Part shown: positions 5,437 to 64,000 of the stretch, piece by piece
Layout of the letters: each line of letters opens with the position of its first letter
How positions within the stretch are numbered: the first letter of the stretch is position 1
Assembly (NCBI GenBank): GCA_010909165.1
Contig: MU008165.1
Span: forward strand, 806,001 to 870,000
Reading direction: 5' to 3'
Length of the DNA: 64,000 bases
Origin: Anthoceros angustus
Lineage: Eukaryota > Plantae > Anthocerotophyta
Program-made: the position numbers and the translations under genes
Notes under the pieces: generated by a model
What the model was told of the DNA's origin: nothing
Database searches by the model: none
The model's input: the letters and a program-made list of their open reading frames with translations, nothing else

Positions 5437-5810
5437 TGAGGGGGTGGACACCGTTCCCATGTGTTGTTTTTCCGCCTCCCAACAATGTACCAAGTTGTCC
5501 CGCACCGCATACCACACATCCGTAAAGTACGCTTTAGATTTTCTCGCCGACAGACCGCCCACAAGTGGATGAAGCTCCATCGATGCATCAATCACCGGCC
5601 GTGGATGCCCTATCCGGCCCACAACCTCTCCTTCGGGCCGCCAGCTTGTGTAGTGTTTTCAAGGTGCTGGATCAGACTTCCCTCTTCTTTTATGCGCGTA
5701 GCCTCGCCTCCTTTACCCCGCCACGCCTTAGGCCGATCTCAGCTCAACATTGAAGCGCCTAGGCGCCAAGACCGCCACATCCTCGGTGCTTGATTCCCAC
5801 CTCCCAAATT
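5437..5810 (+). repeat. Polypurine tract and probable 3' LTR of the Copia element
   Basis: gagggggtg directly after RNase H. The 3' end only loosely matches bases 1-28. Confidence 0.5.
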
Positions 5811-33700: not shown

Positions 33701-34189
33701 GTCGGCGCCGACAAGCTCTCTCTACCAGACCTAAGTTTAAATTCCCAGACCTAACTCCCGAAGCCCGGTACCAAACCTACCTACAAAAATGATTCGTCCA
33801 CACCGGCCCGTATAACCAAACCTAAACATTCCAAACCAACGGCGGGCGTAAGCGAACCTAGGAACGAATCGCTTCACACTGGTATCCAAGCTGGAAGCGC
33901 CTAGAACCATCCACCTCCTCTTACTTAAAACAAGAGCAGTCTGCCACGTCCTCTAGCCCTCCCGCGTCCGTCATTTCATCCGCATCACTTTTTGCTCACA
34001 TCTAGTGCCCAACATGTTTTGGTGTACTTCCTTGCGCCATGATCTTTCTCTACTTCCGCAACCGCTTACGGGAGAAGGTCGGGTTTCGATTGCACAAGTA
34101 AGTGGATAGCATTTTCCGATGGATATACTTGAGATACGGCCGCGCCTCGGTAGTGCAAAGCCGGCGGGAGCAATGAGGAGGTGTCGGGG

Positions 34190-35389: not shown

Positions 35390-36158
35390 GAAGGAAGGTA
35401 TGTTTTGCCGAGGTGGATTGAATGTAAAGTGGAGTTCATGGCGTTTGTCCTTGATGCGTTGCGACTTGTCGAGAAGAATGGTGATCATTTGAGCAGACAT
35501 TTTTGAAGACAAAGAAGCATAGGGATGCAGAAGCTGGCAAGCTCGGATCACCCGTAGGTGGTGTGCTTGAGTCCTCTCGTTTCTTCTTGATGCTTAGTAC
35601 TAGCAATTTGTTTCGTTCATGATCGATGGTAGTTTGAGGTTATGTGCAGGTGTGATTAAAATCCAATTTCAGAAGTCTCATTGTGCAAGCGAGTTCAAAG
35701 CATCGATAAAGTGATTGTACTTATGGACTTCCTGCAAAGTGATTGCTCGGCCTCAACGCCCTTTTTCATATGTAAGGGTCACTCGGACTCTTTGCTTCAA
35801 TTTGTTTTCTTAGGACCCCAGTTTAAGGACTGGTTTACTAACAAGGTGCTTTTCCTGTGTGCCCTCGGATACAACACCACCCAAGGTGCGAGTAAAAGAT
35901 CTCCAACAGACATTGTATGCAGCGGGACTAGCCCAGTGCTCTGGTTTACTTTTCTCTCACGAAACTCCCAAAGGTATATCCGGCTCATGTGTTGGTGTGT
36001 TATGCGAGCAATAGATACCGTAGGTACCCTTAACTTACATCCAATGGTTCCCATCACAAATCTTTAGGTCTGTAAGTGCGGATATGTGCAGAAAGGGGCC
36101 CGTTTGTGAAGCTAGAGATTGCCGAGCTGCGGGATCTTCACCGGTTGATAACCAAGGA

Positions 36159-37970: not shown

Positions 37971-40900
37971 ATACACCACATGACCGCGGGATTGTGCGCG
38001 CCGGCTGTCCATCGGTGGCCACAAGATGGTGACTGCCACGGTAGGCTGCCCACCCCTATGGTGCCTCCCTCACCAAGGGTGAGGTGGGGGGTGCCTCCTC
38101 GGTAGGCACAAATGAGATGGTGGGGACTCCCCCACCCTTGGGGCCATCACCCTCACAGTAGTCCTTCTCTCATAGACTACCATTCGGCCTTCCTCGGCCG
38201 GTTCTGCTCTTCTCCCCTTGCACTCTGTGGAAAGGATTCCCACTCGGCAACTTTGTTGCCTCACCTTTCCTCTTGCTTCTAGCATGTTTGTGGAGTCGAC
38301 CTCCCTGTCTTCCCATAATGCAAAGGCAAAGGCCTTTCCAAACTCGGCTGGAGGTGGATGACCTCAAAGGGATGCCACGCATCTTCAAGCTCCTTGCTTG
38401 TGAGGAGTCCCTCGGTTTCCCATAAATGCACCAAGTAGGTGCTGAGGTATAACTGGGCCTTCCTCATCCACGAATTTGAGGAGCTTCTCTCGATGGTGTA
38501 TATGCCTTCATACATGATGGTTCCCCAATCCTTGGCTCCCATGGAAATCTTCCACAAAAATTGGAGGAAGTTGGTCTTTGAAATAAGAAGTGGTAATTTA
38601 CCAACCCAGCACAATCTTTGCGAAGAGCCTCCACTTGACTCCTTGATGCTCTCGGTCTTCCAGCCATTCTTGGCGTGGGCCTTCCTTCCCCATCCATCAT
38701 GTCGAGGAACTCTTGCGGGATATCGAGAGCTGTCCTCTTCCCTCCATTGGACCTTTCGAGGAGAGCAATTCCAGTGCTCTCTTCCTCCGGTCTCCCGTAC
38801 ACCTGTCGAATACTCCTTACGGTCCAACAGCGGGGATCCGTTCTAGCATTCCTTTCCGGTAGCGCGGCGAGGGCTGCTTCCGATTGATGGAGGTTGATGT
38901 AACACTCCTCAATCAATTCCAAATTGGTGTAGGCCCATTGGCGGCCATACACCCATCCTAATTGGATGTTCTCCTCCTCTGCCCACTGCCGAAAATCAAC
39001 CAAATCTCGAGGGTTAAGCTGCCCAGCAAAGCAAGTGAATTGGGGCATCACAAGTTCACCTCCCCCTGGCGGCGCAGCCCCTGCTGCTGCTTTCTTTCCT
39101 TTTTCTCCTCGCGAGGAGGAGCCCTTGCCAGGCGGCTCCTTTCCCTTGCCTTTTCCAGCTCGAGGCATGGCACCTCCTTACTCCACGCTCCTAGCAAGAG
39201 GATTACTTCCCAATTTTCAGTTGTGTGCTCCAAGCTTCACCTCAAACACTCCTTTTCTCGTCGCGGACTCGACTGAGGCACAAGCACGTTAGCCTGTCTT
39301 GAGCCTCAGGGCCTTTTCCCCTTGATTTCTTCTCTAAGCGGTAGCCGGCAGGTAGTGTGATTTTCCTCCTTCTACTCTCACTCTCCTTCACCTTGCCGCT
39401 TCCAGGCGCTCCAACTCAGCGCTCTGCGGTGGCTCCTTCAATGTGTCCCTTTTCCCGGTGTTGAAGAGCTTCGGTGCCTGGGCGCTCGGTGCCGCCTCCT
39501 CTTTCTCCTTTCCCACTAGGGGTCTTCTCCTTCGCGCGCCGCCTTCCTCTCGTTCGCGGGTGGCGGCGGCGGCAATGGCGCTTCTCCCGGGCTTCTTTTG
39601 CGCTCGGGTCGATCTTTTGGGAAGTGAGTTCGCCTTCGGCTCGAAGAGGAAGTTGGCCCAAGCGCACTTTGCCTTCCTGGATGGCGCCACTGGCGGCCAC
39701 ACCCTAGATTGTGCATCATTCACAAAATCCTAATCGATCTATACTACCTATTTTCCTACTACTGCTATCCCTAATTAATCTCTTGCTAATTACTCTTATA
39801 TATTTATCCCTATTGATGAGCATATATAGTGGATATCCCCCTTTATTCTAAGTTTCCTTTTGGCGAGATTTGTCACCCATGATGCGCGCTTGCGATCTGC
39901 TCCCTTACTCGGGCTACGGCGTGGTGTGGCGACCTACGGTGGTAGTCGCCGACCTACCAACCTTCGTTGCCCATACGCGCAGGTCGCTTGACCCGTTTTC
40001 CTCTGGGATATCCTTTTGCCTTCCTAACAATATTCCACTCTAGTTCCAAGATCTTGAAGTTTTCCTCGCATGTTCCTCTTCAATGGGTCTTAGCCAAAAA
40101 ATCAAACATTGTTCCTGCGGCGGTTGACTAGTTGCAAACTTTACGTTCCACAGATAATAGGGGCCAACCCCACACTGGGCAGCATGGTAGAAGTATGCAC
40201 TTGGTCCTCACTTGCGATAGGTAGGCCACAGATCCCTCCTATTTCCACACGCACATGGCGGTGAAGTTAAGCCACGCGTTCTCCATTCACATATAGACCC
40301 GAGAACATAAGTTTCCTCATCCATGTGCCGAACATAATGGGACCTCCCGCAGATGAGGTGCTTACCCTCCTCCGTAGGCTACACCGTTGCTCGGGTCCAT
40401 GTCCTTGCGGGTGCCGTCATCCCTGCTCCGCCATGACCGCTCAGTTGGGCGCCAATGTCGGTAGCAGCCCACTCACCGCTAGTGGACTCCACGACATCCT
40501 GCTCAAAGAACCCCGGTAGGTGAGGTTTCGGCTACCTTGCTTCCTTCGCTCGTAGTTCCTTCCACTACCCCGGCCGTGGTCCTGCCACCGCCTCTTCCCT
40601 TTGTCTTTCTCGCTCGCCACGTGCCTCATCCCGCCTCCATTTATACCGCCTCCGCCACTTATGGGCCTTCTCCACCGAGGCCGCCCGCCTCCCGGGCTCG
40701 CAACAACCCCCTGCATCTCCCGGTTCGTCCTGGGCATCCTTAATTTGAGCCATGAGCTCTCACTGCCGGCTCCATGGCTGCAACTTCTCCGGCCTCGACA
40801 AATCTTCTCAATCTTGGCCCTTATTTCCTCTAGGACCGCTTGTCTTCCTCCAGCTTGCTTGCGCTTGGCCTCCTCTTCACAAACCCGGCCTTCACCACTT

Positions 40901-46589: not shown

Positions 46590-47050
46590 ATTGCCACTCC
46601 ACTGAGGATGTTGAGGCTTTGGGAGTTTTGGTGCAGACAAAGCGTTGTATTTCCAAGCCTCTCATTTTCTGTGTTCGGGGCACCTCTTGATGCTTGGAAG
46701 ACGCCCAGAGAGTGTTTGATGGGTTACACTGAAAAATGTGGCAACGTGGAACGTCATGATAACAATTCCAGCAGGAATACGAGAAGCCCTTCGTCTCTAC
46801 AGTGCTATGCAAGGAAAGGGCTTGGTTGCCCCTGATACTGTGACGTTTGTTTGTCTCCTCCAGGCCTGTGGCAATTCTGGGCCCTCCAGCCTTGGAGGTG
46901 GGAAGCAGCTTCATTTGCAAATTGGAGAACGGTTCAGTGTACTCAGCAGTGGCAAGATCTTTTGGGTTTAAAGTAGTGAGGTATGCAACTGTGGGATGTG
47001 AAGAGTGTTCTTGGGCTAGCAATGTCATTGTTACAGCCGTCGGGACCAGT
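46590..47050 (+). pseudogene. PLS-class PPR gene fragment (deleted paralogue of the next copy)
   Basis: LEDAQRVFDGL..KNVATWNVMI..EALRLYSAMQGKGLVAPDTVTFVCLLQACG..GKQLHLQI; the 5' part matches 47735-47810. Confidence 0.85.
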
Positions 47051-47470
47051 TCTTGATCGGCAGACTGAGTACCCCTTCCTGCGAATTTATGCATGCAAAT
47101 CTCATAAATGTAGCAAGTTTACAAGAAGTTGCTGTTCAGACTGTCGTACCAATCAATTCGAAAACGTACCACTATCACCAGAGGAGTGGAGAAGCTGGCG
47201 CTGGTGTGTGGGTGCGCAGAGGATTGCATTATGTTAACCATAGTCGAGGTGCCCAATTTTTTCTCTCGCACGATTTTCTGTCGGCAGGAGCCTTATGGTC
47301 TGGAGCTCGGTTGGGCCACACCAAGGATAGCACGACCCGCTAAGAGGACAGTTTTCGTGCACCCAACAGAATGGTGGATTGGCTGCTGGTCGGGGCATAG
47401 CTGCCGGTACGGTGGCTTCAAAAAAGCAACCGGTGGCAAACAACCAAGTCGGGAGGTGGAGCACATTGTC

Positions 47471-48890
47471 ATGAGACCCACCGCGTCAAAGAGAGTTTCT
47501 TTGGGCTTGTATTCTCCTGCGAGCCTCGACCTCGGGAGCTTTTGTGCCGACTGCTGCCTCAGCACACCATGCTCCAGGTCGATAAGGCAGACCAAGAGGG
47601 CTCTAGGTATGGAGATGGAGTTGGGTGGTGGTGGCTTGCACTGGAGTTTGCCGGACAAGCCTGACCGTCACAGGCCTGCTGGATGGTATACGAGTGTGAC
47701 GGCTGAGACCGTGAGAGAGCTATGTGGTCAGGGCCATTCCACTGAGGCTGTTGCGGCTTTGGGAGTTCTGGTGTAGACAGAGCGTTATATTTCTAAGCCT
47801 CTAATTTATGCTTTTTTGAAGAGATGTGTAGTCGAGCAGGACCTTGTTCTAGGTCAAAGGGTCCATGCTTTCTTGGTGAAACAAGGGCATCAGTCAGATA
47901 CGTTCCTGGGATTCCACATTCTGCGGATGTATGCTGCTCATGGCAGGTTGCAAGATGCGATCCAGAGATGTATTTTCAGTTGTGGCTAAAACAGATACCT
48001 TCACGTGGTCTGCCATAAGCTCTGCCCATGTTATACAATGGTGAGACTAGCAGGCCTTACAACTCTATGATAGGACATGCGCGCAAGTCAAGGGTGAAGC
48101 CAGATGGGATGTCTTCGTGGCAACTCTTCAGGCTTGTGCAAGGGGATTAGAGTTGAAAATTGGGCAGCAGGTGAATGCGGACGTGTTGGACAGTGGCGTT
48201 GAGCCTGATTGTTTTGTCTGTAATTGCTTGGTAAGCATACGCAGCTTGGAAGACGCTGAGAGTTTCTACTGTGCTATGCAAGGATAGGGCTTAGTTTCCC
48301 CTATACTATGACGTTTGTTTGTCTCCTGCAGGGCCCTTTAGCCCTGAAGATGGGGAAGCAGCTAGTTTCTTTTGCAAATTGGAGAACGGTTTCAGTGAGC
48401 TCGCAAGTGACGAGATATTTTGGGTTTGAAGCCCTGAGAGATTTCCAGGTGCTCGCCAAAGTGAGGAGTCTTTCCTTTTAGTTCCCATGATGTCATGCAT
48501 AGTTGAAAATTGAGGGTTGACAAGCAAGGATGGCCATTGTTTATCAACCCTCAATTTGTCAACTACGTATGACATCATGGGAAGAAGCCCACATGCACTT
48601 GGGAAGAAGCCCTTCGTCTGTATAATGGTATGAAAGGAAAGGGCATGGTTGTTCCTGGTATCGTGACGTTTGTTTCTCTCCTGCAGGCCCGTGCAAGTCT
48701 GGGCCCTTCAGCCTTGGAGATGGGCACGCAGCTTCATCTGCAAATTGGAGAACAGGATCATCAGGCTCATGTAGTTGTAGCCTACAGTTCGGTAAACATG
48801 TATGCAAACAGCCTGGAAGACGCTCGGGAAGTCTTTGACAGCCTTGGTGAAAAAAATGTGGTGACGTGGACTGCTCGAATTGCGATGCTT
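47471..48890 (+). pseudogene. PLS-class PPR protein gene, truncated by the tandem array
   Basis: N-terminal extension, then YAFLKRC..DLVLGQRVHAFLVKQGHQSDTFLG, GRLQDA, VEPDCFVCNCLV, EEALRLYNGMKGKGMVVPGIVTFVSLLQA..LEDAREVFDSLGEKNVVTWTA. Homology stops at the 85-bp repeats. Confidence 0.88.
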
Positions 48891-48896
48891 AATTAA

Positions 48897-49152
48897 CATA
48901 ACCATTTCGTATTAATTAATTAATACTAATAACTTACTTAATGATAAGTCATTAGATTAATTAATGCTAGATATAAATGAATTTAACCACTTCATATTAA
49001 TTAATTAATACTAATAACTTACTTAATGATAAGTCATTAGATTAATTAATGCTAGATATAAATGAATTTAACCACTTATATTAATTAATTAATACTAATT
49101 ACTTACTTAATGATAAGTCATTAGATTAATTAATGCTAGATATAAATGAATT
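48897..49152. repeat. 85-bp AT-rich hairpin repeat x3 (unit 1); x5 at 53030-53441, x3 at 57225-57470, x3 at 61333-61580
   Basis: aaccacttcatattaattaattaatactaataacttacttaatgataagtcattagattaattaatgctagatataaatgaattt, containing a ~21-bp imperfect inverted repeat. Confidence 0.95.
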
Positions 49153-49261
49153 TAACATAAATCAGCAGCACTATCTCTTTCTAAAATAGATGCCAATATA
49201 CCAATCGACACACCGTTGAAAATTTACCAATTTACTAGTTGCCAATATGAAGCGGTAGTTT

Positions 49262-49280
49262 CTCATGGGGTATAAATGGA
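49262..49280 (+). promoter_or_regulatory. TATA-like motif (ggggTATAAATgg) between the two repeat arrays, present in all units
   Basis: Motif only; conserved at about 49268, 53559, 57584 and 61695. Confidence 0.3.
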
Positions 49281-49359
49281 GACTTAAATCGAAACCACTG
49301 GACTCGAACTTGAAATCTTGTTATCCATTCTTCTTGCATGTAACTTTTTTATAATTCTA

Positions 49360-50462
49360 TGATCTACTGTTAAGGTTTGTTCAATGAAGATTGATGTTCT
49401 CCTTTACGGAGGGATGAGTTTATGCATGTATATTCCTATGTGTGCTAACGAATTCATTCTCTCTACTTGTTCTCTACAGTTTCCCTAGAGGGCACGTAAA
49501 TTACCCAAAGGCGAGACCTAAACCAAAGATTTCCTCCACGCCATGAACTTCAAAATCTCCTACTCTTGCAAATATCTTTTAATGATCGTGTGATCTACGG
49601 TTGTTAAGGTCTGTTCAATGAAGATTCATGTTCTCCTTTATAGAGGGATGGGTGTATGCATGTGTATTCCGGCGCGTGTTAACGAATTCATTCTTTCTAC
49701 TTGCTTCCTACAGGTTTCCCTAGAGGGCACGTAAATTACCCAAAGGGCGAGACCTAAACCGAAAGATTTCCTCCGCACCATGAACTTAAAAATCTCACAT
49801 TCTTGCAAATATCTTTAAATAATCGTGTGATCTACGGTTGTTAAGGTTTGTTCAATGAAGATTCATGTTCTCCTTATAGAGGATGAGTTTATGCATGTAT
49901 GTTCCTATGTGTGCTAACGAATTCATTCTCTCTACTTGTTCTCTGAGTTTCCCTAGAGGGCACGTAAATTACCCAAAGGGCAACACCTAAATCGAAATAG
50001 TTCCTCCGCGCCATGAACTTCAAAATCTCATACTCTTGCAAATATCTTTTAATGATTGTGTGATCTACAGTTGTTAAGGTCTGTTCCATGAAGATTCATG
50101 TTCTCCTTTATAGAGGGATGGGTGTATGCATGTGTATTCCGGCGCGTGTTAACGAATTCATTCTTTCTACTTGTTCCCTACAGGTTTCCCTAGAGGGCAC
50201 GTAAATTACCCAAAGGGCGAGGCCTAAACCGAAAGATTTCTTCCGCACCATGAACTTAAAAATCTCACATTCTTGCAAATATCTTTTAATAATCGTGTGA
50301 TCTACTGTTAAGGTTTGTTCAATGAAGATTCATGTTCTCCTTTATAGAGGATGAGTTTATGCATGTATGTTCCTGTGTGTGCTAAGAATTCATTCTCTCT
50401 ACTTGTTCCTGGGTTTCCCTAGAGGGCACGTAAATTACCCAAAGGGCGAGACCTAAACCGAA
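49360..50462. repeat. ~236-bp tandem repeat, alternating A/B variants, x5 (unit 1); x3 at 53652-54292, x5 at 57680-58752, x5 at 61790-62857
   Basis: Core gaagattcatgttctccttta..ccctagagggcacgtaaattacccaaagggcgagacctaaaccgaaaga. A has atgagtttatgcatgtatgttcc; B has atgggtgtatgcatgtgtattcc. Confidence 0.95.
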
Positions 50463-50493
50463 GAAATACTCCTATTTATCAATCTTTAAAATT

Positions 50494-51297
50494 ATGGAGT
50501 CCACAATGAAAATTGAAGTGAGAATGTTTGAAGAAAGATACATATGTGGAAAATGTATCGGTGAAGGAGGTTTTTCCAAAGTCTATGAATGCTATGACAA
50601 ATATACGGAAAGATATTTTTGCAAAATTATGAAAAATCTAAAGACATAAATGATGCAATATGTAGAGATCAACACTCTTGATCTCTTCCAAAATATTCTC
50701 ATATTATTAACACAAAAGTGTTCATGAGGATATTGAACATATTTATATTGTGATGGAGCTATGTACCAATGGTACACTAAAGGATGAACTAAAAAGGGGA
50801 GCTTATTGTGAAGAGGATGCAAAAATACTTATGTTTAACCTAATGGAGGCAATCAATTTTGCCACAGGCATAATGTTATGCATCGCGATTTGAAACCGCT
50901 AATATACTATTACTTAGTCTCAAAGTCATACTAGCAGACTTTGGTTTGTCTCCATGTCTCCAAAAGCGAACATGAATTATTATGCTGCAGGAACCCCATG
51001 TTACATGGCTCGGAGGTATTGAGTCGGAAGACGATGTAAACATAAGCTATACTTCAAAAGCCGATATTTGGAGCGCAGAGTCATTTTGTATGAAGTTTTA
51101 ACGAAATCGTCCTTATATAGGATATGAGTTCGACGTAAAAAGAAGAATGGATAACTCAATTGGACCTAGATGAGTGGCCCAACATGTCACACAGTGAAAG
51201 ATCTACTACACTCAATGTTACATTTAGAACAAGAGTGTAGACCGGATCTTGACAAGTTCTAAACCATTCTTGGTTTTGCTCGCTATCTTATATATGA
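50494..51297 (+). CDS. Minimal (~267 aa) CAMK/CDPK-like Ser/Thr kinase, intronless and AT-rich, unit 1
   Basis: Cross-copy consensus: IGEGGFSKVYEC, FACK, REINTL, IYIVMELCTNG, VMHRDLKPANILL, LADFGL, GTPCYMAPEV, KADIWSAGVILY, WPNMS..DLLHSML..VLNHSWF*. Two 60-nt lines counted at about 32-33% GC. Confidence 0.9.
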
Positions 51298-51639
51298 AAG
51301 ATAGTAATTTTATTATATAAGAACTTTTATTTGTATTATATATTTTAATATAATGATTTTTATTTTAACTTTATTCATAATTTCATTAAACCACTCTTGA
51401 CCTCTTTCTTGTGGAAAAGTCTTCAAGCCATGCAAGCGAGTCATGAAATTGATGTAGTGAAGCTAAGATTGGAGTATATCGCTATGTGTTTAGCCTGAGT
51501 CTTTGTTTTGGTCATTGTCATAGCATGGCATAATAGCATCGGACAATTTCTTCTTCTATAGCTACGCATATTATAGTTACTAAATCGCATGTTAGAATCT
51601 TGGCCGGGTTCAAACCACGATTCTGCGCTCTAAGCGGTG

Positions 51640-52830
51640 CTCAGCTGGGGCGACCACACCAAGGGTGTGCGAATGTTTTGAATCATGAGCCGAGCAAGTG
51701 AGCGTGGCACAGGCGGTGTGAAGATGGCGGCGAGAAGGAAAATTGGCATTTAGGAAGCGGATTGTTGAAGTCCCACCTTGCGGTAGTCACAGAGAACTCC
51801 TAGCACAGGCAATGGACACCGTTCGAAAGAAGCCATCACACAAGAAAGGGGCGGGTAGGCTTTAGCACGCCTTGATGAACTGGAGAAATCCTTGCCCATG
51901 GCCCCGTGAGTCTCGATGGCAAGGGGATGAAGGCGTGGCCCTTCTTGCATGGGCGTAGTGAACGTTGTTGTCGCGCATCTCGCCGCTGGAGGGTTGATGA
52001 TGGCGTGCTTGCGGGCAAGGTCATTCGGCCACATCCACAACGGTCCCTCGGCCGTCGAGAACATGGCGTCGCGGACGGCGTGATCGTGTGCTGGCCATTT
52101 GGAGAGCGAGGGCTCGGCGGCGAGTCTAAAGAGAGCGAGCCAAAGGTTGGACCAAACCAGGCGGAACCTCATCGCGGTAGAAAAGAAGTGCGACTCGAAA
52201 TACCTTGATGCAAGGTCGGGCTAGAAGCCATGAACACCTCCTTCCCGAGCAAGAGCGGGCGAGCTCGGGTCAAGGAATGGAGGAATCGAGGAGCAAAGCC
52301 CGCGTGCCCATACAAGTTTCTTCTCATGGAGGGAGGCCAAAAGCCGGCCCGTCCAGAGAACGAGGGACGAATGCGGCACGCCTAGCCTCGGAGGATAGGA
52401 CACCTAGCCAATCTTAAGGACAAGCATGCAGGGAAGGCGCCTCCTCGGCGAGACGAGGCCTTGAAGATGCGGTAATCCCAGGATTAGGAAATGGGAGGCC
52501 TAGATGCGGGTTGAGAGGACCAAGCTCAAGCGTCGTGCGGATGCCTTGCGGCGCACTCTAAGGGGCCGCTCTTGAGGTAAGCAATTGCATTCATGTGAGC
52601 ACTTCCTCAACGGACAACCAAGCAAAACAAGTCTAATATGCAAATATAGGTGCAAACCAATTTGTAACACTAGGAGAGAGTAGCTCGCACGTTGTGGTTT
52701 TCCTCCCACACTCTCCCCACGAGAACAACACGCAAATTGTTGGCACATGGCTCTCGGAGTGATAGCTTTGGCCTCCTCACAACACTCTTGCATCGCATAT
52801 CTAGAGGACAAGCTATGATGTGAGCTTGTC
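51640..52830 (-). mobile_element. 3' fragment of a CRE-clade (RLE-type) non-LTR retrotransposon, unit 1
   Basis: Cross-copy consensus RARLRSCSG..SWLLARP..F, HDAVRDAMFSA, VVDVA, KY..GHAFIPLAIETHGAMG..F, FFQQRVSIALQ: the RT C-terminal/zinc-knuckle/RLE tail. No RT core. Confidence 0.8.
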
Positions 52831-54322
52831 CTTTGTGAAAGGGTCTATATAGATATACTAGGCCTTGGCATTGGCATATTCCTAAGATATCCTATTGGCA
52901 TCAGCATATGCCGGAAATATCCAAAGAATACACCATAATATGCAAGGAATATGCTAAAGCATATAACTTGTGTTTATCCACTTAGTTATTGCTAGCGTGT
53001 TTAATTAGGATGTATGCTTAATTAACATAACCACTTCATATTAATTAATTACTAATTACTTAATGATAAGTCATTAGATTAATTAATGCTAGATATAAAT
53101 GAATTTAACCACTTCATATTAATTAATTAATACTAATAACTTACTTAATGATAGGTCATTAGATTAATTAATGCTAGATATAAATGAATTTAACCACTTA
53201 TATTAATTAATTAATACTAATTACTTACTTAATGATAAGTCATTAGATTAATTAATGCTAGATATGAATTTAACCACTTATATTAATTAATTAATACTAA
53301 TAACTTACTTAATGATAGGTCATTAGATTAATTAATGCTAGATATAAATGAATTTAACCACTTCATATTAATTAATTAATACTAATAACTTACTTAATGA
53401 TAAGTCATTAGATTAATTAATGCTAGATATAAATGAATTTAACATAAATCAGCAGCACTATCTCTTTCTAAAATAGATGCCAATATACCAATCGACACAC
53501 GTAGTTGAAAATTTACCAATTTACTAGTTGCCAATATGAAGCTGGTAGTTTCTCATGGGGTATAAATGGTGAGACTTAAATCAGCTACGCTCGGACTGAA
53601 CTTAAAATCTTGTTATCCATTCTTCTTGCATGTAACTTTTCATAATTCTATGATCTACTATTGTTAAGGTTTGTTCAATGAAGATTGATGTTCTCCTTTA
53701 CGGAGGGATGAGTTTATGCATGTATATTCCTATGTTATGCTAACGAATTCATTCTCTCTACTTGTTCTCTACGTTTCCCTAGAGGGCACGTAAATTACCC
53801 AAAGGCGAGACCTAAACCGAAAGATTTCCTCCGCGCCATGAACTTAAAAATCTCACATTCTTGCAAATATCTTTTAATAATCGTGTGATCTACGGTTGTT
53901 AAGGTATGTTCCATGAAGATTCATGTTCTCCTTTATAGAGGGATGGGTGTATGCATGTGTATTCCGGCGTGTTAACGAATTCATTCTTTCTACTTGTTCC
54001 CTCTGGTTTTCCCTAGAGGCACGTAAATTACCCAAAGGGCGAGACCTAAACCGAAAGATTTCCTCACCATGAACTTAAAAATCTCACATTCTTGCAAATA
54101 TCTTTTAATAATCGTGTGATCTACGGTTGTTAAGGTTTGTTCAATGAAGATTCATGTTCTCCTTTACGGAGGGATGAGTTTATGCATGTATGTTCCTATG
54201 TGTGCTAGCAATTCATTCTCTCTACTTGTTCTCTCTGAGGTTTCCCTAGAGGGCACGTAAATTACCCAAAGGGCGAGACCTAAACCGAAAGAAATACTCC
54301 TATTTATCAATCTTTTAAAATT

Positions 54323-55123
54323 ATGGAGTCCACAATGAAAATTGAAGTGAGAATGTTTGAAGAAAGATACATATGTGGAAAATGTATCGGTGAAGGAGGT
54401 TTTTCCAAAGTCTATGAATGCTATGACAAATATACGGAAAGATATTTGCCCAAAATTATGAAAAATCTAAAGACATAAATGATGCAATATGGAGAGATCA
54501 ACACTCTTGATCTCTTCCAAAATATTCTCATATTATTAACACAAAAGTGTTCATGAGGATATTGAACATATTTATATTGTGATGGAGCTATGTACCAATG
54601 GTACACTAAAGGATGAACTAAAAAAGGGGAGCTTATTGTGAAGAGGATGCAAAAATACTTATGTTTAACCTAATGGAGGCAATCAATTTTGCCCAGGGCA
54701 TAATGTTATGCATCGCGATTTGAAACCGGCTAATATACTATTACTTATATCTCAAAGTCATACTAGCAGACTTTGGTTTATGCATTCCATGTCTCCAAAA
54801 CGAACATGAATTATTATGCGAGTGCAGAACCCCATGTTACATGGCTCGGAGGTATTGGAGTAAGGCGATGTAAACATAAGCTATACTTCAAAAGCCGATA
54901 TTTGGAGCAGTCATTTTGTATGAAGTTTTAACCGAATCGTCCTTATATAGGATATGAGTTCGACACAAAAGAAGAATGGATAACTCAATTGGACCTAGAT
55001 GGGTGGCCCAACATGTCACACGGTGAAGATCTACTACACTCAATGTTACATTTAGAACAAGAGTGTAGAGGATCTTGACAAGTTCTAAACCATTCTTGGT
55101 TTTGCTCGCTATCTTATATATGA
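54323..55123 (+). CDS. Minimal CDPK-like kinase, unit 2
   Basis: Same motifs as unit 1. Confidence 0.9.
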
Positions 55124-55439
55124 AAGATAGTAATTTTATTACATAAGAACTTTTATTTGTATTATATATTTTTAATATAATGATTTTTATTTTAACTTTA
55201 TTCATAATTTCATTAAACCACTTCGGCCTCTTTCTTGTGGAAAGTCTTCAAGCCATGCAAGCGTCATGAAATTGATGTAGTGAAGCTAAGATTGGAGTAT
55301 ATCGCTATGTGTTTAGCCGGGTGAGTCTTTATTTTGGTCATTGTCATAGCATGGCATAATAGCATCGGACAATTTCTTCTTCTATAGCTCGCATATTATA
55401 GTTACTAAATCGCATGTTAGAATCTTGGGTTAAAACCCC

Positions 55440-57030
55440 GATTTCTCGGCTCTAAGCGGGCTCAGCGTGCTTGTGGGGCGACCACCAAGGTGTGCGAATG
55501 TTTTGAATCATGAGCCGGGCAACGTGGCGAGGCGGAGTGTGAAGATGGCGGTGCGAGAAGGAAAATTGGCATTTAGGGGAAAGCGGCTATTGTTGAAGTC
55601 CCACCTTGCGGTGGTCACGGAGAGAACTCCTACCTGCAGGCAATGGACACCCGTTGCTGAAGAAGCCATCACACAAGAAAAGGGGGCGGGCTGTAGGCTT
55701 AGAGCCTTGATGAACTGGAGAAATCCTTGCCCATGGCCCCGTGAGTCTCGATGGCAAGGGGATGAAGGCGTGGCCCTTCTTGCATGGGCGAGTACTTGTG
55801 AGCGTTCGTTGTCGCATCTCTCCGCCACCCAACCGGAGGGTTGATGATGGCGATCTGCGGGCGGTGTCCGGGCAAGTGCATACGGACATCTGACGTCCCC
55901 CTCGGCCGAGAACATGGCGTCATGACGGACGTGCGTGGCGCGCCGCACGGAGCGAGCTACCGGTCTAAAGAGAGCAGCCAAAGGTTGGACCAAACCCAGT
56001 GAACCTCATCAGTAGAAAAGAAGCCGGTGCGACTAAATACCTTGATGCAAGGTCGGGCTAGAAGCCATGAACCTCCTTCCCGAGCAAGAGCGGAGGCGAG
56101 CTCGAGGCTGGTCAAGGAATGGAGGAATCGAGGAGCAAAGCTGCGTGCCCATACAAGTTTCTTCTCATGGAGGGAGGCCAAAGCCCGGCCGTCCGCAGAG
56201 AACGAGGGGCAGATGCGGCGCGCCCTAGCCTCGGAGGATAGGACACCTAGCCAATCTTGGGACAAGCATGCAGGGAGGCGCCTCCTCGGCCGAGAACATG
56301 GCGTCGCGACGGCGTGATCGTCAATGCGCTGCCACGGTGGAGAGCGAGGCTACGTGACAGTCTAAAGAGAGCAGCCAAAGGTTGGACCAAACCCAGTGAA
56401 CCTCATCAGTAGAAAAGAAGCCGGTGCGACTCGAAATACCTTGATGCAAGGTCGGGCTAGAAGCCATGAACACCTCCTTCCCGAGCAAGAGCGGAGGCGA
56501 GCTCGTTGGTCAAGGAATGGAGGAATCGAGGAGCAAAGCAGCCACGTGCGCCATACAAGTTTCTTCTCATGGAGGAAAAGCCCCGGCCGTCCGAACGAGG
56601 GGCGAATGCGGCGTGACCGCCCTAGCCTCGGAGGATGGGACACCCTAGCCAATCTTAAGGACAAGCATGCGGGAAGGCGCCTCCTCGACGCACGAAGGCC
56701 TTGAAGATGCGGTAATCCCCGATTAGGAAATGGGAGGCCTAGATGCGGGTTGAGGCTCAAGCGTCGTGCCGGATGCCTTGCAGGCGCCTCTAAGGGCCGC
56801 TCTTGTGAGGTAAGCAATTGCATTCATGTGAGCACTTCCTCAACGGACAACCAAGCAAAACAAGTCTAATATGCAAATACCAATTTGTAACACTAGGAGA
56901 GTAGCTTGCGTTGTGGTTTTCCTCACACCTCACGAGAACAACACGCAAATTCGGCACATGGCTCTGGGTGATAGCTTTGGCCTCCTCACAACTCTCTTGC
57001 ATTGCATATGTAGAGGACAAGTTATGATGT
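55440..57030 (-). mobile_element. CRE-like fragment, unit 2, with an internal ~385-bp tandem duplication (55903-56690)
   Basis: Block from ctcggccgagaacatggcgtc to gcagggaggcgcctcctcg occurs twice, joined through cctcggc. Confidence 0.8.
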
Positions 57031-58786
57031 GAAACTTGTCGCTCAGAAATCTATATAGATATACTGGGCCTTGGCATTGGCATATTCCTAAGATATCCTA
57101 TTGGCGTCTACGAAATATCCAAAGAATACACCATAATATGCAGGAATATGCTAAAGCATATAACTTGTGTTTATCCACTTAGTTGCTACCGTGTTTAATT
57201 AAGATGTCGATGCTTAATTAACATAACCACTTCATATTAATTAATTACTAATTACTTAATGATAAGTCATTAGATTAATTAATGCTAGATATAAATGAAT
57301 TTAACCACTTCATATTAATTAATTACTAATAACTTACTTAATGATAGGTCATTAGATTAATTAATGCTAGATATAAATGAATTTAACCACTTCATATTAA
57401 TTAATTAATACTAATTACTTACTTAATGATAAGTCATTAGATTAATTAATGCTAGATATAAATGAATTTAACATAAATCAGCAGCACTATCTCTTTCTAA
57501 AATAGATGCCAATATACCAATCGACACACTTGAAAATTTACCAATTTACTAGTTGCCAATATGAAGCCCGGTAGTTTCTCATGGGGTATAAATGGGCGAG
57601 ACTTAAATCAAACTACCGCTCGGACTCAACTTAAAATCTTGTTATCCATTCTTCTTGCATGTAACTTTTCATAATTCTATGATCTACGGTTGTTAAGGTT
57701 TGTTCAATGAAGATTGATGTTCTCCTTTACGGAGGGATGAGTTTATGCATGTATATTCCTATGTAACGAATTCATTCTCTCTACTTGTTCTCTCTGTTTC
57801 CCTAGAGGGCACGTAAATTACCCAAAGGCGAGACCTAAACCGAAAGATTTCCGCGCCATGAACTTAAAAATCTCACATTCTTGCAAATATCTTTTAATAA
57901 TCGTGTGATCTACGTTGTTAAGGTATGTTCCATGAAGATTCATGTTCTCCTTTATAGAGGGATGGTGTATGCATGTGTATTCGCGTGTTAACGAATTCAT
58001 TCTTTCTACTTGTTCCTGAGTTTCCCTAGAGGGCACGTAAATTACCCAAAGGGCGAGACCTAAACCGAAAGATTTCCTCCGCCATGAACTTAAAAATCTC
58101 ACATTCTTGCAAATATCTTTTAATAATCGTGTGATCTACTGTTGTTAAGGTTTGTTCAATGAAGATTCATGTTCTCCTTTACGGAGGGATGAGTTTATGC
58201 ATGTATGTTCCTATGTGTGCTAACGAATTCATTCTCTCTACTTGTTCTCTGAGTTTCCCTAGAGGCACGTAAATTACCCAAAGGCGAGACCTAAACCGAA
58301 AGATTTCCTCCGCACCATGAACTTAAAAATCTCACATTCTTGCAAATATCTTTTAATAATCGTGTGATCTACGGTTGTTAAGGTATGTTCCATGAAGATT
58401 CATGTTCTCCTTTATAGAGGATGGGTGTATGCATGTGTATTCGCGTGTTAACGAATTCATTCTTTCTACTTGTTCCCCTGGGTTTCCCTAGAGGGCACGT
58501 AAATTACCCAAAGGCGAGACCTAAACCGAAAGATTTCCTCCGCATGAACTTAAAAATCTCACATTCTTGCAAATATCTTTTAATAATCGTGTGATCTACG
58601 GTTGTTAAGGTTTGTTCAATGAAGATTCATGTTCTCCTTTATAGAGGGATGAGTTTATGCATGTATGTTCCATTAACGAATTCATTCTCTCTACTTGTTC
58701 CTCGAGGTTTCCCTAGAGGGCACGTAAATTACCCAAAGGCGGACCTAAACCGAAAGAAATACTCCTATTTATCAATCTTTAAAATT

Positions 58787-59589
58787 ATGGAGTCCACAAT
58801 GAAAATTGAAGTGAGAATGTTTGAAGAAAGATACATATGTGGAAAATGTATCGGTGAAGGAGGTTTTTCCAAAGTCTATGAATGCTATGACAAATATCGG
58901 AAAGATATTTGCCTGCAAAATTATGAAAAATCTAAAGACATAAATGATGCAATATGTAGAGATCAACACTCTTGATCTCTTCCAAAATATTCTCATATTA
59001 TTAACACAAAAGTGTTCATGAGGATATTGAACATATTTATATTGTGATGGAGCTATGTACCAATGGTACACTAAAGGATGAACTAAAAAGGGGAGCTTAT
59101 TGTGAAGAGGATGCAAAAATACTTATGTTTAACCTAATGGAGGCAATCAATTTTGCCACAGGCATAATGTTATGCATCGCGATTTGAAACCGCTAATATA
59201 CTATTATTTAGTCTCAAAGTCATACTAGCGGACTTTGGTTTGTCATTCCATGTCTCCAAAACGAACATGAATTATTGTGCGATGCGAGAACCCCATGTTA
59301 CATGGCTCGAGGTATTGGAGTCAGACGATGTAAACATAAGCTATACTTCAAAAGCCGATATTTGGAGCGCAGGAGTCATTTTGTATGAAGTTTTAACGAA
59401 ATCGTCCTTATATAGGATATGAGTTACGAAAAAGAAGAATGGATAACTCAATTGGACCTAGATGAGTGGCCCAACATGTCACACAGTGAAAGATCTACTA
59501 CACTCAATGTTACATTTAGAACAAGAGTGTAGACCGGATCTGAACAAGTTCTAAACCATTCTTGGTTTTGCTCGCTATCTTATATATGA
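58787..59589 (+). CDS. Minimal CDPK-like kinase, unit 3
   Basis: Same motifs; ORFs 58619-58975 and 59240-59422. Confidence 0.9.
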
Positions 59590-59899
59590 AAGATAGTAAT
59601 TTTATTACATAAGAACTTTTATTTGTATTATATATTTTTAATATAATGATTTTTATTTTAACTTTATTCATAATTTCATTAAACCACTCTTGAGGCCTCT
59701 TTCTTGTGGAAAGTCTTCAAGCCATGCAAGCGTCATGAAATTGATGTAGTGAAGCTAAGATTGGAGTATATCGCTATGTGTTTAGGATGAGTCTTTGTTT
59801 GGTCATTGTCATAGCATGGCATAATAGCATCGGACAATTTCTTCTTCTATAGCTACGCATATTATAGTTACTAAATCGCATGTTAGAATCTTGACGGGT

Positions 59900-61140
59900 T
59901 CGCAAACCCCGATTACCGGCTCTAAGCTCACGTGCTTGTGGGACGACCACACCAAGGGTGTCGAATGTTTTGAATCATGAGCCGAGCAAGTGAGCGTGGC
60001 CAGGCGGAGTGTGAAGATGGCGGCGTCGAGAAGGAAAATTGGCATTTAGAAGCTATTGTTGAAGTCCCACCTTGCGATCACGGAGAGAACTCCTAGCACT
60101 GCAGGCAATGGACACCGTTGCTGAAGAAGCCATCACACAAGAAAAGTGTGGTAGGCTTTACGAGCCTTGATGAACTGGAGAAATCCTTGCCCATGGCCCC
60201 GTGAGTCTCGATGGCAAGGGGATGAAGGCGTGGCCCTTCTTGCATGGGCGAGTACTTGTGAACGTCGTTGTCGCGCATCTCTCCGCCACCCAACCCGGAG
60301 GGTTGATGATGACGTGCTGCGCGGTGTCCGGGCAAGGTCTTACGCCACATCCACAAACGGTCCCCCCCTCGCCGAGAACATGGCGTCGCGGACGGCGTGA
60401 TGCGTGTAATGCGCGCCGGAGCGAGGGCTACGGTGTCTAAAGAGAGCGGCGCCAAAGGTTGGACCAAACCAGTGAACCTCATCGGTAGAAAAGAAGCCGG
60501 TGCGACTCGAAATACCTTGATGCAAGGTCGGGCTAGAAGCCATGAACTGCTCCCTTCCCCGCAGGCGGAGCGAGCTCGGTCAAGGAATGGAGGAATCGAG
60601 GAGCAAAGCCATGCGCGTGCCCATACAAGTTTCTTCTCATGGAGGGAGGCCAAAGCCCCACGCAGCCGTCCGCAGAGAACGAGGACGAATGCATGGCCGC
60701 CCTAGCCTCGGAGGATAGGACACCCCTAGCCAATCTTAAGGACAAGCATGCAGGAAGGCGCCTCCTCGACGCCCGACGAAGGCCTTGAAGATGCGGTAAT
60801 CCCAGGATTAGGAAATGGGAGGCCTAGATGCGGGTTGAGAGGACCAAGCTCAAGCGTCGTGCGGATGCCTTGCGGCGCACTCTAAGGGCCGCTCTTGGAG
60901 TAAGCAATTGCATTCATGTGAGCACTTCCTCAACGGACAACCAAGCAAAACAAGTCTAATATGCAAATACCAATTTGTAACACTAGGAGAGAGTAGCTTG
61001 CGTTGTGGTTTTCCTCCCACACTCTCACGAGAACAACACGCAAATTGCCGCACATGGCTCGGAGTGATAGCTTTGGCCTCCTCACAACTCTCTTGCATTG
61101 CATATGTAGAGGACAAGTTATGATGTGAGCTTGTCCTTTG
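59900..61140 (-). mobile_element. CRE-like fragment, unit 3
   Basis: ORF 60093-60653 carries SWLLARP and LHPLAIETHGAMGKDF. Confidence 0.8.
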
Positions 61141-62888
61141 TGAAAGGGTCTATATAGATATACTAGGCCTTGGCATTGGCATATTCCTAAGATATCCTAT
61201 TGGCATCGACTATCGAAATATCCAAAGAATACACCATAATATGCAAGGAATATGCTAAAGCATATAACTTGTGTTTATCCACTTAGTTATTGCTAACCGT
61301 GTTTAATTAATGAATCGATGCTTAATTAACATAACCACCATATTAATTAATTAATACTAATTACTTAATGATAAGTCATTAGATTAATTAATGCTAGATA
61401 TAAATGAATTTAACCACTTATATTAATTAATTAATACTAATAACTTACTTAATGATAGGTCATTAGATTAATTAATGCTAGATATAAATGAATTTAACCA
61501 CTTATATTAATTAATTAATACTAATTACTTACTTAATGATAAGTCATTAGATTAATTAATGCTAGATATAAATGAATTTAACATAAATCAGCAGCACTAT
61601 CTCTTTCTAAAATAGATGCCAATATACCAATCGACACACTGTTGAAAATTTACCAATTTACTAGTTGCCAATATGAAGCCCGTAGTTTCTCATGGGGTAT
61701 AAATGGGCGACTTAAATCGAACTGCTCGGACTCGAACTTCAAATCTTGTTATCCATTCTTCTTGCATGTAACTTTTCATAATTCTATGATCTACTTGTTA
61801 AGGTTTGTTCAATGAAGATTGATGTTCTCCTTTACGGAGGGATGAGTTTATGCATGTATATTCCTATGTGTGCTAACTAATTCATTCTCTCTACTTGTTC
61901 TCTGAGGTTTCCCTAGAGGGCACGTAAATTACCCAAAGGCGAGACCTAAACCGAAAGATTTCCTCCGCCATGAACTTAAAAATCTCACATTCTTGCAAAT
62001 ATCTTTTAATAATCGTGTGATCTATTGTTAAGGTATGTTCCATGAAGATTCATGTTCTCCTTTATAGAGGGATGGGTGTATGCATGTGTATTCCGCGTGT
62101 TAACGAATTCATTCTTTCTACTTGTTCCCTGAGGTTTCCCTAGAGGGCACGTAAATTACCCAAAGGGCGAGACCTAAACCGAAAGATTTCCTCACCATGA
62201 ACTTAAAAATCTCACATTCTTGCAAATATCTTTTAATAATCGTGTGATCTACGTTGTTAAGGTTTGTTCAATGAAGATTCATGTTCTCCTTTACGGAGGG
62301 ATGAGTTTATGCATGTATGTTCCTATGTGTGCTAATTCATTCTCTCTACTTGTTCTCTGTTTCCTAGAGGGCACGTAAATTACCCAAAGGGCGAGACCTA
62401 AACCGAAAGATTTCCTCCGCACCATGAACTTAAAAATCTCACATTCTTGCAAATATCTTTTAATAATCGTGTGATCTACTTGTTAAGGTATGTTCCATGA
62501 AGATTCATGTTCTCCTTTATAGAGGGATGGGTGTATGCATGTGTATTCGTGTTAGAATTCATTCTTTCTACTTGTTCCCTGGGTTTCCCTAGAGCACGAA
62601 TTACCCAAAGGCGAGACCTAAACCGAAAGATTTCCTCACCATGAACTTAAAAATCTCACATTCTTGCAAATATCTTTTAATAATCGTGTGATCTCTACGG
62701 TTGTTAAGGTTTGTTCAATGAAGATTCATGTTCTCCTTTATAGAGGGATGAGTTTATGCATGTATGTTCTGTGTGTGCTAACGAATTCATTCTCTCTACT
62801 TGTTCCTCAGTTTCCCTAGAGCACGTAAATTACCCAAAGGCGAGACCTAAACCGAAAGAAATACTCCTATTTATCAATCTTTAAAATT

Positions 62889-63705
62889 ATGGAGTCCACA
62901 ATGAAATTGAAGTGAGAATGTTTGAAGAAAGATACATATGTGGAAAATGTATCGGTGAAGGAGGTTTTTCCAAAGTCTATGAATGCTATGACAAATATAC
63001 GGAAAGATATTTGCCTGCAAAATTATGAAAAATCTAAAGACATAAATGATGCAATATGTAGAGAGATCAACACTCTTGATCTCTTCCAAAATATTCTCAT
63101 ATTATTAACACAAAAGTGTTCATGAGGATATTGAACATATTTATATTGTGATGGAGCTATGTACCAATGGTACACTAAAGGATGAACTAAAAAGGGGAGC
63201 TTATTGTGAAGAGGATGCAAAATACTTATGTTTAACCTAATGGAGGCAATCAATTTTGCCACGGGCATAATGTTATGCATCGCGATTTGAAACCGCTAAT
63301 ATACTATTACTTAGCCGTCTCAAAGTCATACTAGCGAGACTTTGGTTTATGCTCCATGTCTCCAAACGAACATGAATTATTATGCAGTGCAGAACCCCAT
63401 GTTACATGGCTCGGAGGTATTGGAGTCTCAAGACGATGTAAACATAAGCTATACTTCAAAAGCCGATATTTGGAGCGCAGGAGTCATTTTGTATGAAGTT
63501 TTAACGGAAATCGTCCTTATATAGGATATGAGTTCGACCGCGAAAAAGAAGAAGAATGGATAACTCAATTGGACCTAGATGAGTGGCCCAACATGTCACA
63601 CAAGTGAAGATCTACTACACTCAATGTTACATTTAGAACAAGAGTGTAGACCGGATGTGACAAGTTCTAAACCATTCTTGGTTTTGCTCGCTATCTTATA
63701 TATGA
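62889..63705 (+). CDS. Minimal CDPK-like kinase, unit 4
   Basis: Same motifs; ORF 63342-63524. Confidence 0.9.
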
Positions 63706-63853
63706 AAGATAGTAATTTTATTACATAAGAACTTTTATTTGTATTATATATTTTTAATATAATGATTTTTATTTTAACTTTATTCATAATTTCATTAAAC
63801 CACTCTTGATTGCCTCTTTCTTGTGGAAAGTCTTCAAGCCATCTGGCGATCAT
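63630..63853 (-). CDS. Small (~70 aa) K/I/N-rich ORF convergent with and overlapping the kinase 3' end; present in each unit
   Basis: M..WLEDFPQERG.QEWFNEIMNKVKIKIIILKIYNTNKSSYVIKLLSFIYKIASKTKNGLEL; frame stays open through very AT-rich sequence. Confidence 0.3.
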
Positions 63854-64000
63854 GAAATTGATGTAGTGAAGCTAAGATTGGAGTATATCGCTATGTGTTT
63901 AGCTGAGTCTTGTTTTGGTCATTGTCATAGCATGGCATAATAGCATCGGACAATTTCTTCTTCTATAGCTACGCATATTATAGTTACTAAATCGCATGTT

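What the first reader, a model, noticed from the sequence alone, without database searches (positions are those of the whole stretch)
50494..51297. Stand-alone CDPK-like catalytic domain without EF-hands, possibly intact and multi-copy
Seen: all catalytic motifs recoverable (Gly loop, K in FACK, alphaC E, HRDLKP, DFG, APE, DIWS). CDPK-like VMELC / VMHRDLKP / WPNMS..DLL, but the ORF stops 4 codons after HSWFC, with no junction or calmodulin-like domain and no introns. Indels differ between the four copies (e.g. gatcttgac / gatctgaac / gatgtgac, consistent with gatgctgaa = D-A-E), so the genomic gene may be intact. Known: removing the CDPK autoinhibitory/EF region gives Ca-independent activity; PPCKs are natural minimal examples. 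Inference: a constitutive kinase of viral or other foreign origin, amplified in dosage.
Basis: partly seen in the sequence, partly recalled or inferred. Interest (0 to 1): 0.7.

Follow-up and report, generated by a model that had tools for sequence, protein, structure and literature searches.

The report
Kinase gene riding an LTR retrotransposon
A stripped-down protein-kinase gene without calcium-sensing parts sits backwards inside a repeated 4-kb unit of plant DNA that is likely a self-priming jumping gene, so its many copies likely reflect the jumping gene's spread rather than a need for more kinase, and some abundant variants are already broken.

Summary
The kinase is real: four near-identical, intronless CAMK-group kinase domains that end five residues after HSWFC, with no junction or EF-hands. 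Most breaks in the window are likely long-read errors: the host desaturase and PPR genes are broken alike, and short-read contigs of run X1 add letters at seven breaks. Each copy lies antisense inside a ~4.1-kb head-to-tail unit with LTR marks: TG...CA ends, a purine tract, a jump in short-read depth, and a primer site complementary to the LTR itself (best of 1737 tested 16-mers). That fits a non-autonomous self-priming LTR retrotransposon carrying the kinase as cargo beside tandem repeats. No close relative was found: 30-35% identity to CDPKs and CaMK1s alike, lower to 80 viral kinases; trees cannot fix the origin. High-depth X1 contigs carry frameshifts at 50821 and 51188, and other variants have deletions, a stop and a Gly-loop change, so much of the family is decaying. 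Viral origin and selected dosage are not supported; an intact copy is possible but unshown. No kinase appears among surveyed extra ORFs of plant LTR elements, so an element-serving kinase remains a live, untested reading.

The parts
48885..64000 (-). Head-to-tail array of four ~4.1-kb units (ATG-to-ATG spacing 3829, 4464, 4102); runs off the right end of the window
50494..51297 (+). Kinase copy 1 (the finding): intronless CAMK-group catalytic domain, antisense to the element, 15 frame switches as read, GC 0.35, GC3 0.31
54323..55123 (+). Kinase copy 2
58787..59589 (+). Kinase copy 3
62889..63705 (+). Kinase copy 4 (14 frame switches; shares the one-base loss that X1 shows at 50821)
52663..53457 (-). 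LTR-like segment between units 1 and 2 (795 bp, TG...CA, holds the 85-bp AT-rich tandem at 53040-53443); the part 52663-53000 lies at X1 depth 400-11000. The right boundary rests on the purine tract alone
56886..57486 (-). LTR-like segment between units 2 and 3 (601 bp); self-primer-like stretch at 57071-57086
60976..61596 (-). LTR-like segment between units 3 and 4 (621 bp); self-primer-like stretch at 61170-61185
48885..49170 (-). Leftmost LTR-like copy, cut short; abuts a PPR gene fragment in mid-motif
60958..60973 (-). Primer-site-like 16-mer two bases past the LTR end, complementary to the LTR itself (14.5 of 16); same at 56868-56883; broken by a 10-base insert at the unit 1/2 junction (~52640-52661)
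53458..53469 (-). Polypurine-tract-like 12-mer directly before the LTR's TG (also 49171-49182 and in units 3 and 4); weakly specific, seven such sites per unit
49331..50462 (.). ~237-bp tandem repeat (4.7 copies; 2.9, 4.9 and 4.9 in the other units), ending 32 bases before the kinase ATG; candidate promoter region, untested
51298..51400 (+). Very AT-rich stretch (GC 0.14) after the kinase stop, like a plant 3' UTR
51650..52580 (-). GC-rich coding fragment resembling the C-terminal endonuclease region of an RLE-type non-LTR retrotransposon (motifs recalled; no Pfam or PDB match)
47741..48884 (+). Host PPR gene fragment interrupted by the array; frameshifted like the kinase

Best explanation
The kinase lies antisense inside a 4.1-kb head-to-tail repeat unit that is likely a non-autonomous, self-priming LTR retrotransposon, which likely carried and multiplied the gene as cargo, and much of the family is now likely silenced and decaying. 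Shown: the unit's layout on the minus strand (LTR-like end, LTR-complementary primer-like site, coding fragment, antisense kinase, 237-bp repeats, purine tract, LTR-like start), high and varied copy depth, and broken variants. Inferred mechanism: the element's RNA would start about 200 bases before the LTR end, fold back onto the primer site as in Tf1/Tcn1-type elements, and be reverse-transcribed and integrated by Gag-Pol of an autonomous partner; recombination between LTRs would then give the shared-LTR array. The kinase would be transcribed from its own promoter in the 237-bp repeats. An intact copy would be calcium-independent because the junction and EF-hands are absent. Its ancestor was likely a CDPK-superfamily gene that lost its regulatory tail and evolved fast under selection before or during its stay in the element.
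For: Unit structure and spacing. LTR-like ends TG...CA at 3 of 3 full junctions. LTR-complementary 16-mer: 0 of 500 resampled LTRs reach its score at each of 2 junctions; it is the only one of 1737 internal 16-mers tested (every second offset) at 14 or more; the helix is in both the MFE and centroid folds. This fits the self-priming definition in PMC6317226 (passages). X1 depth is about 300-1100 over the kinase and rises to 4200-11200 at 52760-53000; contigs that share the primer-side 70 bases diverge inside the LTR. Antisense ORFs beside tandem repeats before the 3' LTR are a known layout (PMC11963269, PMC7264820). Decay: X1 variants with a one-base loss at 50821 (depth 142 of 1244) and a two-base loss at 51188 (143.5 of 156), each giving an early stop; deletions of 191 and 129 bases; of 6 listed coding codons changed in X1, 2 are silent, 3 missense (one in the Gly loop) and 1 nonsense. 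CHG sites are depleted in the unit (0.44 of expectation against 0.87-1.1 in the desaturase, copia and PPR stretches). CDPK affinity: 97% SH-aLRT group with plant and red-algal CDPKs once long rows are dropped, and the highest likelihood of three constrained trees.
Against: No target-site duplication or intact outer end can be seen: the left LTR is cut short and the array leaves the window. The primer-like site is broken at the unit 1/2 junction (11 of 16; 391 of 500 nulls as good), and I looked for it after seeing that no tRNA-Met site was there. The whole 276-base fold is no more stable than shuffles (z = -0.01). The purine tract is not specific (7 sites per unit). No gag or pol lies in the unit, so no lineage can be assigned; Tcn1 and TAR elements have no extra ORFs in the REXdb table. 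Depth has no single-copy control and 54 indel rows were not shown. X1 may be another individual, and contigs drop rare variants. All four window copies are longer than the dominant X1 contig at 51188, and the X2 variant keeps the frame there, so they may be intact. The rest of the window is also CHG-poor (0.66). The 72-row tree put the kinase outside the CAMK group among long branches, a scaffold-free piece matched CaMK1 (26.7 bits) better than plant CPK3 (14.3), and no origin was rejected.
Confidence: 0.55

Rival explanations
1. The kinase is an accessory gene of the element itself: an active, calcium-independent kinase kept by selection because it helps the element family spread (for example by acting on its Gag-Pol or on host silencing), with intact master copies among many dead ones.
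For: All catalytic motifs and a stop-free frame over 240 codons of copy 1 survive despite a branch of over 2 changes per site from the nearest kinase, which needs long selection. It has its own upstream repeats and AT-rich 3' end, in the place where Retand and Grande carry transcribed antisense ORFs. Seven of 9 listed kinase indel rows in X1 add letters at window breaks, one of them shared by all four copies.
Against: High-depth variants are frameshifted and listed substitutions are mostly missense or nonsense. The selection may have acted on a host gene before capture. No target or expression is shown. I chose the stop-free pieces by homology landmarks, which is partly circular.
Confidence: 0.17
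2. It is a host gene family: a lineage-specific minimal kinase (PPCK-like in build) amplified by ordinary tandem duplication for dosage, with the LTR and LINE pieces being passengers inside the duplicated block.
For: Four near-identical neighbours (6-14 substitutions per ~800 bases); shared short C-terminus; the left LTR is incomplete, as a duplication breakpoint would leave it.
Against: Both an LTR end with primer site and a purine tract with LTR start bracket the kinase in the right order; many diverged, deleted and broken variants; GC3 0.31 against 0.84 for the desaturase and 0.48 for the PPR fragment.
Confidence: 0.15
3. The kinase came from a giant virus or another foreign donor and was later caught by the element.
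For: Intronless although antisense to the element, so the element's own splicing cannot explain the lack of introns; AT-rich; no close plant relative; a tree holding it with three viral kinases is not rejected (p-AU 0.72), nor one with stramenopile CaMK1 (0.60).
Against: Best of 80 viral-contig kinases 95 bits, median 53, against 125-131 for cellular ones; two direct viral scans gave one chance phage hit and nothing; no viral gene in the unit; long-branch pull favours such joins.
Confidence: 0.1
4. The four copies are an assembly or library artefact (concatemer of one molecule).
For: Raw long-read quality; copies differ mostly by indels (22 of 26 difference clusters).
Against: Units differ in repeat counts, a 0.4-kb internal duplication and a 10-base insert; X1 shows high depth independently.
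Confidence: 0.03

Closest known systems
Self-priming LTR retrotransposons: Tcn1 (Tf1/Sushi-related chromoviruses of non-seed plants) and TAR copia (PMC6317226, passages and supplements 4 and 5; PMC2864245, passages)
   Same: TG...CA LTR, no tRNA site, primer site complementary to the LTR starting within 0-5 bases of the LTR end, purine tract.
   Different: No gag-pol or chromodomain; carries an antisense kinase, tandem repeats and a LINE-like fragment; REXdb lists no extra ORFs for Tcn1 or TAR.
Retand/Grande/Ogre antisense extra ORFs (PMC11963269, passages and section 11 part 1; PMC7264820, passages)
   Same: Antisense ORF and tandem-repeat array just inside the 3' LTR.
   Different: Those use tRNA-Lys/Arg primers and encode TRP28, plant mobile domain and similar; no kinase is in the REXdb domain table (domains found in five or more elements).
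Non-autonomous LTR elements (TRIM/LARD range) with tandem arrangements and LTR-borne retroduplicated genes (PMC13570524, PMC5664825; passages)
   Same: About 4 kb, no coding capacity for transposition, shared-LTR array, host-type gene inside.
   Different: The cargo is antisense, has no findable close parent, and is about 65-70% diverged from every kinase retrieved.
Plant CDPKs and PPCK (architecture recalled; CDPK sequences P0160, P0208, P0001, P0003)
   Same: CAMK-group domain with VMELC, VMHRDLKP, ADIWSAGVILY and W..S..KDL motifs; PPCK-like lack of extensions.
   Different: No junction, EF-hands or N-terminal Gly2; only 30-34% identical; no labelled PPCK was in the comparison set.

Membership tests
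Plant CDPK (CPK) | CAMK-group Ser/Thr kinase domain | tested here: met
Plant CDPK (CPK) | Autoinhibitory junction after the kinase domain | tested here: not met
   stop five residues after HSWFC in 4 of 4 copies
Plant CDPK (CPK) | Calmodulin-like domain with four EF-hands | tested here: not met
   AT-rich non-coding DNA and an opposite-strand fragment follow
Plant CDPK (CPK) | Nests in the land-plant CDPK clade | tested here: inconclusive
   outside; in a wider CDPK group (97%); AU p 0.82, best likelihood by about 4 units
Plant CDPK (CPK) | A near-identical full-length host parent | not testable with these tools
   no genome held; none in public proteins
PPCK | Bare kinase domain without extensions (recalled) | tested here: met
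   about 270 residues read through with X
PPCK | Groups with PPCK sequences; phosphorylates PEPC | not tested
   no labelled PPCK among the 275 proteins compared
Endogenous giant-virus gene | Closest relatives are viral | tested here: not met
   95 bits best of 80 viral loci against 125-131 cellular
Endogenous giant-virus gene | Viral neighbour genes | tested here: not met
   unit holds repeats, a LINE-like fragment and LTR-like DNA only; no DNA match to any fetched locus
Endogenous giant-virus gene | Tree rejects or supports a viral clade | tested here: inconclusive
   p-AU 0.72
Self-priming LTR retrotransposon (Tcn1 or TAR type) | LTR with TG...CA ends | tested here: met
   3 of 3 full junctions; right boundary inferred from the purine tract
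Self-priming LTR retrotransposon (Tcn1 or TAR type) | Primer site complementary to the LTR, 0-5 bases past its end | tested here: met
   2 of 3 junctions, 14.5 of 16 with one mismatch and one wobble
Self-priming LTR retrotransposon (Tcn1 or TAR type) | Polypurine tract before the 3' LTR | tested here: inconclusive
   present in 4 of 4 units but one of seven similar sites per unit
Self-priming LTR retrotransposon (Tcn1 or TAR type) | 5-bp target-site duplication | not testable with these tools
   left end cut short, right end outside the window, no genome
Self-priming LTR retrotransposon (Tcn1 or TAR type) | gag-pol (and chromodomain) placing it in a lineage | tested here: not met
   no such ORF seen in six-frame translations of the unit; so non-autonomous and unassigned
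Retand/Ogre (OTA) elements | Antisense ORF and tandem repeats before the 3' LTR | tested here: met
Retand/Ogre (OTA) elements | tRNA-Lys/Arg primer site and TRP28 or plant mobile domain | tested here: not met
   LTR-complementary site instead; the ORF is a kinase
RLE-type non-LTR retrotransposon (51650-52580) | RH..RD, PD..D, K..Y and P.AIET.G motifs (recalled) | tested here: inconclusive
   look-alikes seen in shifting frames; no Pfam or PDB match

The most novel reading that the evidence does not exclude
A plant LTR retrotransposon family has domesticated its own constitutive protein kinase as an antisense accessory gene, the plant counterpart of a retrovirus-borne kinase, and keeps intact master copies that phosphorylate element or host silencing proteins to aid its spread.
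Probability: 0.17. Interest if true: 0.85.

Novelty: new variant of a known kind. Interest (0 to 1): 0.48.

Why it matters
The function of antisense extra ORFs in plant LTR retrotransposons is an open question (PMC7264820), and nearly all known ones are domains of unknown activity. A kinase is an enzyme with an assay and findable substrates, so an intact copy would make that question testable. Even as dead cargo it shows a self-priming non-autonomous element multiplying a signalling gene stripped of its calcium control. It also warns that kinase-family counts in such genomes can be inflated by element-borne copies.

Tried and rejected
No whole genome was held, so dispersed copies, solo LTRs, target duplications and a parent gene could not be sought. 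No RNA holder was listed; X2 is only a guessed RNA run and shows one 1055-base contig matching 51025-51192 at about 90%, with unrelated sequence upstream: no evidence on expression either way. Low X1 depth over 51655-51824 and 51995-52420 is not interpretable (filtered records). The short-read check of the breaks shared by all four copies is missing except for 50713, as is a single-copy depth control. Plasmid blastn found nothing. An exact 26-base scan of metagenomes found 0; a peptide scan gave 17 loci, none over 33% identical across the domain. Viral scans with window pieces gave one chance phage locus (L001) and none. The Atlas could not read the piece. Alignments of short pieces on a scaffold were unreliable (A5 discarded; A6 and A8 used), and their hits lean to the scaffold's CaMK1 relatives, so all were re-scored locally against the X read-through. 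The careful tree did not finish; only quick trees were read; the 35-row tree left out 37 of the 72 rows, including the longest viral ones and P0004. Rfam and ARAGORN found nothing. A tRNA-Met primer site was rejected for this unit. Helitron ends were looked for by eye and not seen. The idea that the 237-bp repeats are a decayed inverted kinase was not upheld: no protein-level match. No structure or complex was predicted, as no unbroken full-length sequence exists in the window. Earlier findings: three look-ups returned nothing. Nine paper searches (listings and abstracts) turned up no report of a kinase as an LTR extra ORF; REXdb supplements 1 and 3 were too large to read and might list rare cases.

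Full report
Setting. The window is raw long-read-quality land-plant DNA: a fatty-acid desaturase (Pfam DUF3474 and FA_desaturase) at 34154-35400 and PPR fragments at 46600-48884 are both broken by many frameshifts. That the host is a non-seed plant is my recalled impression from the PPR style and is untested. No genome is held.

The observation. A kinase starts at 50494 and ends at 51297, with copies at 54323, 58787 and 62889, 95-97% identical. The motifs appear in shifting frames. The stop follows HSWFC by five residues in all four copies, and nothing like a junction or EF-hand follows. APE cannot be read in any copy, and several breaks are common to all four. Read through with X, copy 1 has 15 frame switches over 240 stop-free codons and copy 4 has 14.

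Are the breaks errors? Of 26 difference clusters between copies, 22 are indels and 18 lie beside CG or CHG, against 20% of background 10-mers (cluster windows are somewhat longer than 10). That pattern suggests basecalling errors at methylated cytosines (inference). One public run, X1, holds 0.47 of the sampled words. Its contigs add letters at 7 of the 9 kinase indel rows shown, including 50713, a break shared by all four copies; 54 further rows were not shown. So most window breaks are likely errors. But two rows go the other way: one base left out at 50821 (depth 142 of 1244) and two at 51188 (143.5 of 156). Each gives an early stop; the second removes the last two helices. Other variants skip 191 or 129 bases, and of six coding codons changed in the listed X1 rows two are silent, three missense (one a Gly-loop Gly) and one nonsense (32 rows not shown). 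All four window copies are longer than the dominant contig at 51188 and the diverged X2 contig keeps the frame there, so the window's own copies could still be intact. X1 may be another individual, and contigs drop rare forms.

The unit. The kinase is part of a head-to-tail unit (spacing 3829, 4464, 4102) with an 85-bp and a ~237-bp tandem whose copy numbers vary between units. On the minus strand a segment of 601-795 bases runs from TG to CA at 3 of 3 full junctions, preceded by a 12-base purine tract. X1 depth is about 300-1100 over the kinase and 4200-11200 at 52760-53000, and contigs sharing the 70 bases next to the segment's end diverge inside it: the look of a high-copy LTR with several subfamilies. 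No tRNA-Met site follows it, unlike the copia at 26-41. Instead the 16 bases from offset 2 pair with a stretch 201-210 bases inside the LTR (14.5 of 16): 0 of 500 resampled LTRs score as high at junctions 2/3 and 3/4, it is the single best of 1737 internal 16-mers, and the helix is in both folds, although the whole fold is not unusually stable. At junction 1/2 a 10-base insert breaks it. PMC6317226 (passages; supplement 5) defines self-priming this way and finds it in Tcn1 and TAR elements. Between the primer site and the kinase lies a GC-rich fragment resembling an RLE-type LINE end (recalled motifs; no library match). No gag or pol is present. The left end is cut inside the LTR and abuts a PPR fragment, so no target duplication can be read. 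The kinase thus sits antisense, beside tandem repeats, just inside the 3' LTR, where Retand and Grande carry extra ORFs.

Origin of the kinase. No close relative exists in the searched sets: none for a 50-residue piece, six distant hits for the core, none among 150 representatives or 17 metagenome loci. Against 275 proteins the best scores are 122-131 bits at 30-35% identity (X counted as mismatch), shared by a red-algal CDPK (P0208), a citrus CDPK (P0160) and a diatom-type CaMK1 (P0121). Eighty viral-contig kinases reach 95 bits at best. A 72-row quick tree put it among long branches outside the CAMK group; a 35-row tree without the longest rows put it with CDPKs at 97% on a branch of 2.24. 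Constrained trees with plant CDPKs, viral kinases or stramenopile CaMK1 were all unrejected (p 0.82, 0.72, 0.60; likelihood gains 12.2, 8.5, 4.3). The origin is open, with a CDPK-superfamily ancestor slightly ahead. GC3 is 0.31 against 0.84 and 0.48 for the two host genes. CHG depletion in the unit (0.44) offers methylation-driven mutation or miscalling as a cause without a foreign donor, though much of the window is also CHG-poor (0.66).

How it likely works. Shown: layout, copy number variation, missing regulatory domains, broken variants. Inferred: a minus-strand RNA primes itself, is copied by an autonomous partner's enzymes, and arrays arise by recombination between LTRs; the kinase is read from the opposite strand and, if intact, needs no calcium (established for CDPKs lacking junction and EF-hands; recalled). 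Keeping every catalytic motif over so long a branch needs past selection. Whether that selection served the host before capture or the element afterwards is the open point; present-day variants look mostly neutral.

Novelty. Genes inside non-autonomous LTR elements and tandem arrangements are known (PMC5664825, PMC13570524; passages). A kinase is not in the REXdb table of extra-ORF domains seen in five or more elements, and Tcn1 and TAR show no extra ORFs there; nine searches listed under Tried and rejected found no such report, and two large REXdb supplements were unread. I rate it a new variant of a known kind, interest 0.48, with a 0.17 chance that it is an element-serving kinase.

Noticed in passing
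window 49320-49335 and 51140-51155: An exact 16-base inverted match between the first 237-bp repeat and the kinase's EEWIT codons, with weaker inverted matches nearby; 0 of 2000 resamples reach 16, blastn E 0.023. Unexplained; no protein-level homology.
   Followed up: partly
window 34154-35400 (+): Omega-3-type fatty-acid desaturase that appears to lack introns, GC3 0.84; possibly a retrocopy.
   Followed up: partly
window 26-41 and 1400-5440 (+): Copia-like element with a canonical tRNA-Met primer site and no CHG depletion.
   Followed up: partly
window ~55890-56285: A ~0.4-kb internal duplication of the LINE-like fragment in unit 2 only.
   Followed up: no
window 46600-48884: Several PPR fragments on both strands, partly repeated (46782-46973 resembles 48262-48753); the last is cut by the array.
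   Followed up: no
window 7005-8604 and 38097-39105: Another repeat family present in inverted copies about 30 kb apart.
   Followed up: no
X2 record 9, laid on window 51025-51192: A 1055-base contig of a guessed RNA run holds a diverged kinase fragment (mostly G-to-A changes) behind unrelated sequence.
   Followed up: partly
window 49331-50462 (-): The repeat period of 237 equals 79 codons and short minus-strand frames recur, but stops interrupt them.
   Followed up: partly
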